NCBI GenBank assembly: GCA_964423885.1
Contig: CAYRGD010000001.1
Span: 24,156 to 88,155 of the forward strand
DNA from: an uncultured Candidatus Saccharibacteria bacterium
GTDB taxonomy: Bacteria > Patescibacteriota > UBA1384 > JACPKC01
Direction of reading: 5' to 3'
Length of the DNA stretch: 64,000 nucleotides
Shown: piece after piece, positions 54,663-57,474 of the stretch
How positions within the stretch are numbered: position 1 is the first letter of the stretch
Layout: the number at the start of each line of letters is the position of its first letter
Position numbers and translations under genes: made by a program
The notes under the pieces: generated by a model
Told to the model about the DNA's origin: nothing
The model's database searches: none
Seen by the model: the letters and a program-made list of their open reading frames with translations, nothing else

Positions 54663-56687
54663 ATGGCACACGCGCACCATCTCGTTATCGTCGAGTCGCC
54701 CGCCAAGGGCAAAACCATCGAGAAATACCTGGGCAAGGGCTACCGGGTGCTTGCCTCGTACGGCCATGTCCGTGACCTGCCCAAGGGCAAGCTCGGGGTC
54801 GACGTCGAGCACGGCTTCGAGCCGACCTACGTGGTGCCGACCAAGGCGAAGAAAGCCGTCGCCGCGCTCAAGAAAGCGGCCGCCGACGCCGACGAAATCT
54901 TCCTGGCCACGGACTACGACCGCGAAGGCGAGGCGATCGCCTGGCATGTGATCCAGGCGTTAGGTCTCGAGAGCGGCAAAAAGCACAAGCCGCTCCACCG
55001 CATCACGTTCCATGAAATCACCAAGTCGGCGATCGAACAGGCGGTGTCGCACCCGCGTGCGCTCGACATGGACCTGGTGAACGCCCAGCAGGCCCGCCGC
55101 ATCCTCGACCGGTTGGTCGGTTATACCTTGAGCCCGTTCCTCTGGAAGAAGGTCATGAAGGGGTTGTCGGCCGGGCGTGTCCAGTCGGTGGCGGTGCGTC
55201 TCATCGTCGACCGCGAACGTGAGATCACGGCGTTCAAACCCCAGGAATACTGGTCGGTCGAGGCGCTGCTTGATACCGCCGACAAGGAACAAATCACGGC
55301 GAGTCTCGTATCCTGGCAGGGCGAGAAGATCGAGAAGCTCACGATCGGGACGAAAGACCGGGCCGACGCCCTAGCCGCATCTCTCAAGGCCGCTACGTAC
55401 GCCGTCGCCTCGGTCGAATCCAAGGAAACCCAGAAGCGGCCGTCGGCTCCGTTCACGACCTCGACGCTCCAACAGCAGGCGGCCCACCGGCTCTACTTCT
55501 CGGCCAAGCAGACCATGAAACTTGCCCAAGACCTGTACGAAGCCGGGCATATCACCTATATGCGGACCGACTCGACCAACCTGGCCGCCGAGGCTGTCGA
55601 CGCGGCGCGCGCCTTCATCGGCCGCGAGTACGGCGCCGACTACGTCCCGGGCACGGCCGCCGCCTATAAGACCAAGGCCAAGGGCGCCCAAGAGGCGCAC
55701 GAGGCGATCCGTCCGACCGACGTCGCCGCCATGCCGGGCGTGCTCGCGCTCGAATCCGACCGCCACGCCAAGCTCTACGAACTCATTTGGCAGCGGATGA
55801 TCGCCTGCCAGATGGCACCGGCGAAGCTGAAGGCCGAGACGATCCTTGTCGACGCGACGGCCGGCGAAGCATCCGGCCACTTGAAGGCGACCGGCAACGT
55901 CGTGGTGTTCGACGGCTACCTCAAGGTCTGGCCGAGCGAGCGCGAGGACGTGCTCCTGCCTGCCCTGGCTGCCAAGGATCCGCTCACGCTCAATGAGCTC
56001 CTGGCCGACCAGCACTTTACCGAACCGCCGGCCCGCTATTCGGAAGCCACGCTCGTGAAAGCGCTTGAAGAGCACGGGATCGGCCGCCCGAGCACGTACG
56101 CGCCGACCCTGTCCACGATCCAAGACCGCAACTACGTCGAGCTCGTCGACCGGCGGTTCCACCCGACCGAGGTCGGGACGGTGGTCGTCGACATGCTGTC
56201 GAAGCACTTCCCGCAGATCGTCGACCTCAACTTCACCGCCAGGATGGAAGAAAACCTCGACGACGTGGCCGAGGGCAAGGAAACTTGGACGAAAGAGCTC
56301 ACGGATTTCTTCGGCCCGTTCGAGCGGCAGGTCAAGGAAAAGACCGAGGAAGTCGCCAAGCTCGACATGACCGAGGACGCCGGCAAAGCCTGCCCCAAGT
56401 GCGGCAAGCCGATGGTGATCCGCCACGGCCGGTTCGGCAAGTTCATTGCCTGTACCGGGTTCCCGGACTGCAAACACACCGAGCCGTTGGTAGTCTCGAC
56501 CGGCGTCACCTGCCCGGAATGCGGCAAGGGGGACGTGATCGAGCGCAAGACCCGCCGCGGCAAGACGTTCTGGGGCTGCAACCGCTATCCGGACTGCAAG
56601 TACGCCACCTGGGACGACCCGCTGAAACCGAAGAAGGAGACCGCCGCGGATGAACCACCTGCCCAAGTCGATCCAGCGGGCAATTGA
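54663..56687 (+). CDS. topA: DNA topoisomerase I
   Basis: TOPRIM N-terminus (LVIVESPAKGKTIEKYLG...YGHVRDLP), catalytic Tyr region, two C-terminal C4 zinc ribbons (CPKCGKPMVIRHGRFGKFIACTGFPDC; CPECGKGDVIERKTRRGKTFWGCNRYPDC). Confidence 0.9.
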   Translation: MAHAHHLVIVESPAKGKTIEKYLGKGYRVLASYGHVRDLPKGKLGVDVEHGFEPTYVVPTKAKKAVAALKKAAADADEIFLATDYDREGEAIAWHVIQALGLESGKKHKPLHRITFHEITKSAIEQAVSHPRALDMDLVNAQQARRILDRLVGYTLSPFLWKKVMKGLSAGRVQSVAVRLIVDREREITAFKPQEYWSVEALLDTADKEQITASLVSWQGEKIEKLTIGTKDRADALAASLKAATYAVASVESKETQKRPSAPFTTSTLQQQAAHRLYFSAKQTMKLAQDLYEAGHITYMRTDSTNLAAEAVDAARAFIGREYGADYVPGTAAAYKTKAKGAQEAHEAIRPTDVAAMPGVLALESDRHAKLYELIWQRMIACQMAPAKLKAETILVDATAGEASGHLKATGNVVVFDGYLKVWPSEREDVLLPALAAKDPLTLNELLADQHFTEPPARYSEATLVKALEEHGIGRPSTYAPTLSTIQDRNYVELVDRRFHPTEVGTVVVDMLSKHFPQIVDLNFTARMEENLDDVAEGKETWTKELTDFFGPFERQVKEKTEEVAKLDMTEDAGKACPKCGKPMVIRHGRFGKFIACTGFPDCKHTEPLVVSTGVTCPECGKGDVIERKTRRGKTFWGCNRYPDCKYATWDDPLKPKKETAADEPPAQVDPAGN

Positions 56688-57273
56688 CGAATTTTCGAAA
56701 CTGCCCGGCGTCGGTGGCAAGACCGCCGGCCGCTTGGTGTTCCACTTGATCCGCCAGTCCTCGACGCTGTCCGACTCGCTCGGGAACGCGCTCATCGACC
56801 TTAAGCGCACCCTGGTGTTCTGCGAGGACTGCTTCAACATCGCCGAGCAGACGCCCTGCGTCATCTGCGCCGATCCGGCCCGCGATGCGTCGGTACTCTG
56901 TGTCGTCGAGCAGCCGCTCGATACCGTGGCCGTCGAGAAGACCGGGTTCCGGGGCAAGTACCACGTGCTGGGCGGCGCGATTTCGCCGATCGACGGCATC
57001 GGTCCGAACGAACTCACGATCCAGGCGCTCATCGACCGCGTGAATGCCCGGGCCGAGATCGCAGAACTGATCCTTGCGACCAACCCGTCGCTCGAAGGCG
57101 AGGCGACCGCGCTCTATATCCGTAAACTCTTGGGCGAACAGGCGGCCGGCCGGAAGCTCGCGGTCACGCGGATCGCGCACGGCTTGCCAGTGGGCGGCGA
57201 TCTAGAGTACGCTGACGCCGTTACGCTGACGCGCGCGCTCGAAGGCCGCCGTGACCTTACGGCAACCAACTAG
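56650..57273 (+). CDS. recR: Recombination protein RecR
   Basis: HhH (IDEFSKLPGVGGKTAGRLVFHL), C4 zinc finger (CEDCFNIAEQTPCVIC), Toprim (LCVVEQPLD...ILATNPSLEGEATALYI). Overlaps the topA 3' end by 38 nt. Confidence 0.9.
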   Translation: MNHLPKSIQRAIDEFSKLPGVGGKTAGRLVFHLIRQSSTLSDSLGNALIDLKRTLVFCEDCFNIAEQTPCVICADPARDASVLCVVEQPLDTVAVEKTGFRGKYHVLGGAISPIDGIGPNELTIQALIDRVNARAEIAELILATNPSLEGEATALYIRKLLGEQAAGRKLAVTRIAHGLPVGGDLEYADAVTLTRALEGRRDLTATN

Positions 57274-57303
57274 GCAGCAACGGACAAAAGGGGAGGGAGG
57301 GGC

Positions 57304-57390
57304 ATGGCGACGTACTACTGCGTGGAGTGCAACCATGAGGGCGAGGAGAAGCGGTGCGAGATGTGCGGCGAGCCCGGGGAGCCGCTCTAA
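57304..57390 (+). CDS. 28-aa Cys-rich zinc-ribbon-like small ORF upstream of cysS
   Basis: MATYYCVECNHEGEEKRCEMCGEPGEPL, preceded by an unusually strong GGAGGGAGGGG ribosome-binding site 3-5 nt from the ATG. 4 Cys in 28 aa as CxxC...CxxC. Not in the ORF track because it is too short. Confidence 0.45.
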   Translation: MATYYCVECNHEGEEKRCEMCGEPGEPL

Positions 57391-57474
57391 GTGAAAGACG
57401 ACCCGCTGTTCGGGGCCCGGCCCGGCCAGTACAGCTACCAGTTCGAGGGCGAGGACGACCTGTGACCCACCTGT

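What the first reader, a model, noticed from the sequence alone, without database searches (positions are those of the whole stretch)
57274..57474. Cys-rich 28-codon uORF with a very strong ribosome-binding site immediately upstream of cysteinyl-tRNA synthetase
MATYYCVECNHEGEEKRCEMCGEPGEPL (57304-57390) follows GGAGGGAGGGG and contains 4 Cys codons arranged CxxC-x8-CxxC. It could be a genuine tiny zinc-ribbon protein. Its position directly 5' of cysS, with no T-box visible, also suggests a ribosome-stalling leader peptide that senses Cys-tRNA(Cys) availability.
Basis: partly seen in the sequence, partly recalled or inferred. Interest (0 to 1): 0.55.

Follow-up and report, generated by a model that had tools for sequence, protein, structure and literature searches.

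The report
Truncated small zinc-ribbon gene before cysS
The "28-codon Cys-rich uORF" is the front half of a conserved 53-codon zinc-ribbon protein gene that sits between recR and cysS in a group of Patescibacteria and is cut here by a premature TAA stop; it is not a cysteine-sensing leader peptide.

Summary
An ATG ORF at 57304-57390 encodes MATYYCVECNHEGEEKRCEMCGEPGEPL (CxxC-x8-CxxC). It follows a strong Shine-Dalgarno (57290-57302) and lies between recR (56650-57273) and cysS (57475-58905). The interpretation does not hold. In every relative recovered (11 distinct contigs, CysS 54-76% identical) the recR-cysS gap holds one called gene, 53-55 aa in close relatives and 52-72 aa in distant ones: MATFYCVECNHEGEEKRCxMCGDxTEPLEVKDDPLYGQRPGQFAYQLDGEEEL. 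The window carries the same gene, but codon 29 (GAG, Glu, in the close relatives) is TAA. The next 24 codons (57391-57465) are in frame and still conserved. Intact members are under strong purifying selection in both halves (dN/dS about 0.02-0.2). AlphaFold2 gives a small zinc ribbon for residues 1-30 and a disordered acidic tail. I found no tandem Cys codons, terminator, conserved RNA structure, Rfam match or room for a promoter. The family has no Pfam or NCBIfam model and is labelled "hypothetical protein". I cannot tell whether the stop is a recent nonsense mutation, a split gene with restart at the adjacent GTG, or a consensus error. Interest is low to moderate: an uncharacterised CPR micro-protein, strictly syntenic with recR and cysS.

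The parts
56650..57273 (+). recR. It overlaps the end of topA (54663-56687), and its TAG stop lies 30 nt before the small gene's ATG.
   Evidence: Pfam RecR_HhH, RecR_ZnF, Toprim_4 and RecR_C. recR lies directly upstream of the small gene in all relatives whose contig reaches that far.
57290..57302 (+). Strong Shine-Dalgarno (GGGGAGGGAGGGG) of the small gene.
   Evidence: Read directly. An AGGAGG/GGAGG motif lies 5-9 nt before the start in all 8 relatives examined.
57304..57387 (+). Codons 1-28 of the small gene: the zinc-ribbon module MATYYCVECNHEGEEKRCEMCGEPGEPL (the 'uORF').
   Evidence: It aligns with residues 1-28 of the 53-aa family. In the AF2 model of family member P0125, residues 1-30 form a beta zinc ribbon with pLDDT about 80. 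Foldseek superposes it on zinc-ribbon knuckles of PolD DP2, aIF2-gamma and Nop10 at 0.5-0.7 A rmsd, none significant.
57388..57390 (+). Premature in-frame TAA at codon 29. The five close relatives with DNA have GAG here; across the wider family the residue is Glu, Asn or Asp.
   Evidence: DNA alignment and protein alignment. The independent Logan assembly of run SRR12712864 shows the same TAA. TAA is an ordinary stop in this genome: it ends 11 of 40 likely genes, including cysS.
57376..57381 (+). GGGGAG, an SD-like sequence 9 nt before GTG 57391. It is created by a window-specific Thr25->Gly codon and could be a restart signal. This is speculative.
   Evidence: Read directly. Relatives have ACN-GAG at this position. 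There is only this one example, so the evidence is weak.
57391..57465 (+). Codons 30-53 of the small gene plus its TGA stop: VKDDPLFGARPGQYSYQFEGEDDL. This is the conserved acidic tail. It is in frame with the first half and begins with GTG directly after the TAA.
   Evidence: pN against relatives is 0.20-0.30 while pS is 0.55-0.88. GC3 is 0.96. The tail is predicted disordered in the AF2 model (pLDDT below 55).
57475..58905 (+). cysS. Its ATG lies 9 nt after the small gene's TGA, with no well-placed SD of its own, so it is probably translationally coupled to the small gene.
   Evidence: Pfam tRNA-synt_1e and CysS_C. The stop-to-start gap is about 2-5 nt in seven close relatives. It is an overlap or 67-168 nt in more distant ones.

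Best explanation
The ORF is the 5' half of a real, conserved protein-coding gene, here called X. X is 53-55 aa in close relatives and 52-72 aa in distant ones. It occurs in a clade of Patescibacteria (Berkelbacteria-type groundwater MAGs) and always lies between recR and cysS on the same strand. X has two parts: an N-terminal four-Cys zinc ribbon (residues 1-28) and a disordered tail carrying the conserved motif EVKDDPL(Y/F)G..GQ(F/Y)(A/S)YQ. In most members the tail ends in an acidic run followed by a hydrophobic or aromatic residue. Shown: in this genome codon 29 is TAA instead of Glu, so the annotated product is the 28-aa ribbon alone. Inferred: X is translated efficiently from its strong SD as part of a dprA-topA-recR-X-cysS transcript. 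The ribbon is a small structural metal-binding module, and the tail is a linear motif that docks on a partner, with RecR and CysRS as the obvious candidates. In close relatives cysS translation is probably coupled to termination of X, because the gap is only about 2-9 nt and cysS has no good SD. The TAA is most likely a recent nonsense mutation in this population. The tail has not decayed, so it is either very young or still translated by restart at the GTG that directly follows the TAA, which would also keep the coupling to cysS. It is not a Cys-tRNA-sensing attenuator.
For: A gene was called in the recR-cysS gap of every relative found, 53-55 aa in close relatives and 52-72 aa in distant ones. 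Flanks of the short contig L095 were confirmed as RecR and CysS by Pfam, and tblastn confirmed recR and cysS flanks in 13 loci. Translations are 60-74% identical to the window over both halves. The family comprises a 10-member cluster plus P0131 and P0132, and a HMMER profile search of 1.84 billion representatives gave 10 hits at E<1e-3. Purifying selection is clear: among intact members pS is 0.44-0.95 and pN is 0.02-0.17 among close members, giving dN/dS of 0.01-0.2 in both halves. AF2 gives a ribbon at pLDDT about 80 and a tail below 55. A strong SD is conserved. The TAA appears in two assemblies, and TAA is an ordinary stop in this genome. None of the 80 more distant cysS loci has a CxxC...CxxC ORF directly upstream or recR directly upstream, so the arrangement is specific to this clade.
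Against: No experiment exists for any member, and the function of X is unknown. No Pfam, NCBIfam or PDB match reaches a threshold. The partner of the tail is guessed from gene order only, and gene order cannot separate recR from cysS because both always flank X. Both assemblies may derive from the same reads, so a read-level polymorphism or consensus error at 57388-57390 is not excluded. The AF2 model rests on only 3 sequences (mean pLDDT 67), and the Foldseek matches are not significant (best E 0.06). Translational coupling and restart at the GTG are inferred from spacing alone.
Confidence: 0.88

Rival explanations
1. Cys-tRNA(Cys)-sensing leader peptide. Ribosomes stall at the four Cys codons when charged tRNA-Cys is scarce, and this raises cysS expression by attenuation or by unmasking its RBS.
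For: The ORF lies directly 5' of cysS in every relative. Four of its first 21 codons are Cys. Cys-codon leader ORFs upstream of cysS exist elsewhere: uORFC-8-2 in Rhodobacterales (PMC8632094), a 10-aa leader in Deinococcus deserti (PMC4007540) and polycysteine sORFs in mycobacteria (10.1101/834739).
Against: There are no tandem Cys codons, and the Cys pattern is the fixed CxxC-x8-CxxC of a metal site. The whole peptide, including a Cys-free tail, is conserved with dN/dS of 0.01-0.2. No terminator was found. The fold is weaker than its shuffles, there is no conserved structure or covariation and no Rfam hit in the window or in 7 relatives. The ORF starts 30 nt after the recR stop with no promoter-like site. 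With tight stop-start coupling, stalling in X would lower cysS translation, which is the wrong direction for this model.
Confidence: 0.04
2. Split gene. The TAA is tolerated because both halves are made separately. The 28-aa ribbon comes from ATG 57304, and the 24-aa tail comes from restart at GTG 57391, aided by the new GGGGAG at 57376-57381. The restart also preserves translational coupling into cysS.
For: TAA and GTG are adjacent with 0 nt between them. A window-specific Thr25->Gly change creates an SD-like GGGGAG 9 nt upstream. The tail frame is intact, has GC3 of 0.96, and shows pN well below pS against relatives. cysS lacks a well-placed SD.
Against: This is a single genome. The GTG is the ancestral Val30 codon, not a new feature. 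24 codons are too few to tell relaxed from maintained selection. A tail detached from its ribbon would probably lose any bridging function. GGGGAG could easily arise by chance in a 65% GC genome.
Confidence: 0.15
3. Assembly or consensus artefact. The organism has an intact 53-codon gene, and TAA is a sequencing or population-consensus error.
For: MAGs of this clade carry other in-frame stops in conserved genes. One example is a TAG replacing Glu in recR of L086. The downstream frame here is undamaged.
Against: The same TAA is present in the NCBI-derived window and in the Logan assembly of SRR12712864, made with a different assembler. TAA differs from the GAG of the close relatives at two positions, which is unlikely for a random read error.
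Confidence: 0.12
4. Nascent-peptide arrest element. The conserved tail acts inside the ribosomal exit tunnel, in the manner of TnaC or SecM, to control cysS translation.
For: The tail is conserved at the amino-acid level and ends only about 2-9 nt before cysS in close relatives.
Against: The last 6-8 residues next to the stop are the least conserved part, and tail length varies widely (42-72 aa proteins). Distant members lie 67-168 nt from cysS. The best conserved part is the N-terminal zinc ribbon, which would lie outside the tunnel.
Confidence: 0.03

Closest known systems
Unnamed family of 53-55 aa 'hypothetical proteins' of Patescibacteria (e.g. MEK7184094.1; cluster representative P0125)
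   Same: 74% identity to the closest member, P0130, across both halves. It has the same CxxC-x8-CxxC motif, the same EPL-E-VKDDPL...YQ tail, the same strong SD and the same recR-X-cysS position.
   Different: The window copy has TAA at codon 29 and two unusual residues (Gly25, Ala38). The family has no Pfam or NCBIfam model and no known function.
Small stand-alone zinc-ribbon / rubredoxin-knuckle proteins (archaeal Nop10, Spt4, rubredoxin; zinc knuckles of PolD DP2 and aIF2-gamma)
   Same: It has two CxxC knuckles on a short beta hairpin. The predicted ribbon superposes at 0.5-0.7 A over 25-28 residues. Like Nop10, it is about 55 aa, with a ribbon followed by an extended partner-binding tail.
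   Different: There is no significant sequence or fold score (Foldseek E>=0.06; PDB hmmsearch E 0.45; Pfam DZR and Zn_ribbon_11 and NCBIfam rubredox_RCKP are all below their cut-offs). The tail motif is unrelated.
Cys-codon attenuator uORFs: uORFC-8-2 upstream of cysS in Rhodobacterales (PMC8632094), the D. deserti cysS leader (PMC4007540) and mycobacterial polycysteine sORFs (10.1101/834739)
   Same: It is a short ORF containing Cys codons directly upstream of cysS.
   Different: [quoted passage not shown] Here the Cys codons are dispersed in a metal-binding pattern, no structure is found, the peptide is under protein-level selection, and the ORF is internal to an operon.
Acidic C-terminal tips ending in a hydrophobic residue, such as the SSB C-terminal tail (DDDIPF). 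This comparison is from my own knowledge and was not tested.
   Same: In most members the tail ends in 3-4 acidic residues followed by L, F, I, Y or A. The gene sits in a string of ssDNA-handling genes (dprA, topA, recR).
   Different: There is no OB fold and no IPF motif, and no evidence of DNA or partner binding. The resemblance is only a lead.

Membership tests
Ribosome-mediated Cys attenuator / leader peptide | Two or more consecutive regulatory (Cys) codons in the short ORF | tested here: not met
   Cys residues are at positions 6, 9, 18 and 21 only and are never adjacent. The pattern is invariant in 15 aligned members. The criterion is taken from 10.1101/834739 and PMC8632094.
Ribosome-mediated Cys attenuator / leader peptide | Terminator/antiterminator or RBS-sequestering helix between the ORF and the regulated gene | tested here: not met
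   There is no + strand terminator-like site in 56500-59300. MFE z-scores are +2.73 and +1.14 against shuffles. RNAalifold on 6 sequences gives -5.25 kcal/mol with a covariation term of -0.25.
Ribosome-mediated Cys attenuator / leader peptide | Located in the 5' leader of the transcript, downstream of a promoter | tested here: not met
   The ATG lies 30 nt after the recR stop, and that space is taken up by the SD. No promoter-like site was found on the + strand upstream. A transcription start cannot be mapped with these tools.
Ribosome-mediated Cys attenuator / leader peptide | Selection acts on the regulatory codons and the RNA, not on the whole peptide | tested here: not met
   dN/dS is 0.01-0.2 over both halves among close intact members, and the Cys-free tail is conserved.
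T-box leader | Match to the T-box covariance model upstream of the aaRS gene | tested here: not met
   No Rfam hit at E<=10 in 56500-58200 apart from a spurious lncRNA match. No hit at gathering score in 7 related loci.
recR-cysS-linked 53-aa zinc-ribbon family (P0125 cluster) | Sequence similarity over the full length | tested here: met
   60-74% identity to close members over residues 1-28 and 30-53.
recR-cysS-linked 53-aa zinc-ribbon family (P0125 cluster) | Position between recR and cysS, same strand, with a strong SD | tested here: met
recR-cysS-linked 53-aa zinc-ribbon family (P0125 cluster) | Uninterrupted ORF, 53-55 codons in close members | tested here: not met
   TAA at 57388-57390 replaces Glu29. 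The window copy is therefore a truncated or split member.
Zinc-ribbon fold (rubredoxin-like knuckles) | Two CxxC knuckles on a beta hairpin | tested here: met
   The motif is read directly. AF2 gives strands at residues 3-6, 11-13 and 26-28 with pLDDT about 80. Rmsd to known knuckles is 0.5-0.7 A, with non-significant E-values.
Zinc-ribbon fold (rubredoxin-like knuckles) | Binds Zn (or Fe) | not testable with these tools
   This needs the purified peptide and metal analysis.
Pfam DZR / Zn_ribbon_11; NCBIfam rubredox_RCKP | Score at or above the curated cut-off | tested here: not met
   Best scores are 16.8 bits (cut-off 27.3) for DZR, 18.4 (cut-off 24) for Zn_ribbon_11 and 17.3 (cut-off 45) for rubredox_RCKP.

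The most novel reading that the evidence does not exclude
X is a dedicated micro-protein adaptor of a Patescibacteria clade. Its acidic, motif-bearing tail docks on RecR (or another ssDNA-processing protein of the operon) or on CysRS. In this genome it has been split by a nonsense codon into two separately translated peptides through TAA-GTG termination-reinitiation, which also maintains translational coupling into cysS.
Probability: 0.1. Interest if true: 0.5.

Novelty: new member of a known kind. Interest (0 to 1): 0.25.

Why it matters
The result removes a tempting false positive: a Cys-rich uORF in front of cysS that looks like an amino-acid-sensing leader. It shows how one nonsense codon in a sub-60-codon gene can mimic a regulatory uORF. 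It also flags an uncharacterised micro-protein family in CPR bacteria that is under strong purifying selection and lies between recR and cysS in every locus examined. Reduced genomes keep few dispensable genes, so a 53-aa protein kept across CysS divergence down to about 54% identity probably has a real role in DNA repair or in Cys-tRNA synthesis. The practical value is modest: a candidate for small-protein annotation, and a possible natural case of a split or restarted micro-gene.

Tried and rejected
- The first protein-database search, with the 52-aa joined peptide, found nothing because of the word index. The family was reached instead through CysS homologues and their contigs, and then by exact look-up.
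None of them has the small ORF or recR directly upstream.
- The metagenome scan with the family alignment returned only one locus, which was already known.
- Stop-codon recoding (TAA read as Glu) is rejected. TAA, TAG and TGA all end likely genes in the window, including cysS and recR.
- Restriction-site or methylation-motif explanations for CTC-GAG becoming CTC-TAA are rejected. CTCGAG occurs 24 times against 26 expected.
- A GC3-based scan of the window for other nonsense-split genes was too noisy to use, because antisense frames also have high GC3.
- I tried an AF2 'pseudo-complex' of X fused to CysS.
- The PDB sequence search, Foldseek, Pfam and NCBIfam gave only generic zinc-knuckle similarities below threshold.

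Full report
**Observation**

GGGGAGGGAGGGG lies at 57290-57302 and ATG at 57304. There are 28 codons (MATYYCVECNHEGEEKRCEMCGEPGEPL) and a TAA at 57388-57390. By Pfam, the upstream gene (56650-57273) is RecR. The downstream gene (57475-58905) is a cysteine-tRNA ligase with the CysS_C anticodon-binding domain. No T-box or other Rfam family matches, even at E<=10.

**The key result**

The genome-contig scan returned only distant CysS relatives (57% identity or less). None has a CxxC...CxxC ORF directly upstream of cysS, and none has recR directly upstream. A protein search with CysS found closer relatives at 63-76% identity, mostly in Patescibacteria MAGs.

In all six contigs fetched, gene callers had placed a small gene directly before cysS (53-54 aa where complete), with recR upstream wherever the contig reached that far. 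The translations read MATFYCVECNHE(G/S)E(E/D)K(R/H)CxMCGDxTEPLEV(K/R)DDPLYGQRxGQFAYQ(L/M)D(G/S)E(E/D)(E/D)L.

Translating the window straight through gives MATYYCVECNHEGEEKRCEMCGEPGEPL*VKDDPLFGARPGQYSYQFEGEDDL*. This is the same gene in the same frame, with TAA where all five relatives with DNA have GAG. The supposed spacer 57391-57474 is mostly codons 30-53.

An independent Logan assembly of run SRR12712864 carries the same TAA. TAA is a normal stop in this genome: it ends 11 of 40 likely genes, including cysS. Recoding is therefore excluded.

**How real and how widespread the gene is**

- Exact look-up placed four relatives in a 10-member cluster of 53-55 aa proteins. The only meaningful label is "hypothetical protein" (MEK7184094.1, Patescibacteria group bacterium).
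- A profile search of the 5.8-billion-protein set added P0131 and P0132.
- A full HMMER profile search of 1.84 billion representatives gave 10 hits at E<1e-3. These include P0133 and P0134 (55-57 aa) and more distant 42-72 aa proteins with the same layout.
- Every context I could fetch is recR - X - cysS on one strand. The loci are L089, L090/L091 and L092/L093 on Berkelbacteria-labelled contigs, L094 and L095. The flanks of L095 were confirmed as RecR and CysS by Pfam. tblastn confirmed both flanks in 13 loci.
- All have AGGAGG/GGAGG 5-9 nt before the start.
- Nei-Gojobori counts among intact close members give pS 0.44-0.91 and pN 0.02-0.17, so dN/dS is about 0.01-0.2 in both the ribbon half and the tail half.

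This is a protein-coding gene under purifying selection, not a chance ORF.

**Anatomy of the protein**

AlphaFold2 was run on P0125 with a three-sequence alignment. It gives short strands at residues 3-6, 11-13 and 26-28 with pLDDT about 80, and a disordered region from residue 31 to 53 with pLDDT below 55.

Foldseek against the PDB superposes the ribbon on zinc knuckles of PolD DP2, aIF2-gamma, Nop10, Spt4 and rubredoxin at 0.5-0.7 A rmsd. None of these matches is significant (best E 0.06). Pfam, NCBIfam and PDB sequence searches stay below every cut-off.

The tail carries a conserved EVKDDPL(Y/F)G...GQ(F/Y)(A/S)YQ motif. In most members it ends in an acidic run followed by a hydrophobic or aromatic residue. 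That pattern is typical of a short linear docking motif. Its resemblance to SSB-type acidic tips is from my own knowledge and was not tested.

**Test of the attenuator idea**

Known Cys-responsive leader ORFs use tandem Cys codons. uORFC-8-2 is paired with an intrinsic terminator and the mycobacterial Ms5788A with an RBS-sequestering duplex (PMC8632094, uORFC-8-2 upstream of cysS in Rhodobacterales; PMC4007540, the D. deserti cysS leader; 10.1101/834739, sections 'Abstract' and 'Attenuating sORF requirements'). [quoted passage not shown] None of this holds here:

- The Cys codons are never adjacent and form an invariant metal-site pattern.
- There is no terminator-like site on the + strand.
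- The RNA folds less stably than its shuffles, with z = +2.73 for 57274-57490 and +1.14 for 57385-57490.
- Six relatives share no structure (consensus -5.25 kcal/mol, covariation -0.25).
- Seven related loci have no Rfam hit.
- The ORF starts 30 nt after the recR stop, within a dprA-topA-recR-X-cysS string, with no promoter-like site.

The X stop lies only about 2-9 nt before the cysS ATG in the window and in seven close relatives, and cysS lacks a well-placed SD. Stalling in X would therefore more likely lower cysS translation than raise it.

**What the stop means**

Three readings remain open.

1. It may be a recent nonsense mutation that leaves a 28-aa ribbon. I consider this most likely.
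2. It may be a split gene. The TAA is followed directly by GTG (the ancestral Val30 codon). A window-specific Thr25->Gly change creates GGGGAG 9 nt upstream, so termination-reinitiation could still produce the tail and preserve coupling into cysS.
3. It may be a consensus or sequencing error. Against that, two assemblers agree, and TAA differs from the relatives' GAG at two positions.

The tail has not decayed. There are no frameshifts, GC3 is 0.96, and pN is well below pS. However, 24 codons cannot separate these readings. Another MAG of the clade has a TAG replacing Glu in recR, so isolated nonsense codons are not rare in these assemblies.

**Comparison and verdict**

The window copy belongs by sequence and synteny to an unnamed Patescibacteria micro-protein family, but it fails the "intact ORF" criterion. 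It has the features of a small zinc-ribbon protein. It is not a member of any curated family, and it is not a Cys attenuator or T-box.

I rate the novelty as a new (truncated) member of a known kind. Interest is low to moderate (0.25). The regulatory hypothesis is refuted. What remains of interest is an uncharacterised, strictly syntenic CPR micro-protein and a possible split-gene restart.

Noticed in passing
L086 2133-2135 (same contig as L088); window 57094-57096: A related Hainich groundwater MAG has an in-frame TAG in recR (CTC TAG GGC) where the window has GAA (Glu). This is a second Glu-to-stop change directly after a CTC codon in this clade. CTCGAG is not avoided in the window and stop codons are used normally, so it is probably an independent nonsense mutation or a MAG consensus error.
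   Followed up: partly
window 57376-57381: A window-specific Thr25->Gly codon creates GGGGAG 9 nt upstream of the GTG that follows the premature TAA. It could act as a Shine-Dalgarno for restart of the C-terminal half.
   Followed up: partly
window 56650-58905: recR, the small gene and cysS all lie in the same reading frame. topA (54663-56687) overlaps recR by 38 nt. dprA-topA-recR-X-cysS forms one tightly packed same-strand string.
   Followed up: no
L092 about 2936-2964: In a more distant Berkelbacteria-labelled relative, the 80-nt recR-X spacer holds a TTGACA-17-TACGAT promoter-like site, and X is 122 nt from cysS. X and cysS may therefore have their own promoter there, unlike in the window.
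   Followed up: no
window 58906-61074: A 318-nt lower-GC spacer follows cysS and has two promoter-like matches (58913-58964). It precedes two hypothetical proteins that appear to be exported (59224-60213, 60214-61074). Both are also found downstream of cysS in relatives: 71-81% identity in L082 and L084 (L082, first protein only) and 32-46% in L083.
   Followed up: partly
P0135, P0136, P0142: Distant profile hits contain two tandem copies of the same zinc-ribbon module. One is a 206-aa protein with hydrophobic C-terminal stretches that look like a membrane region. The ribbon therefore seems to be a reusable module beyond the recR-cysS context.
   Followed up: no
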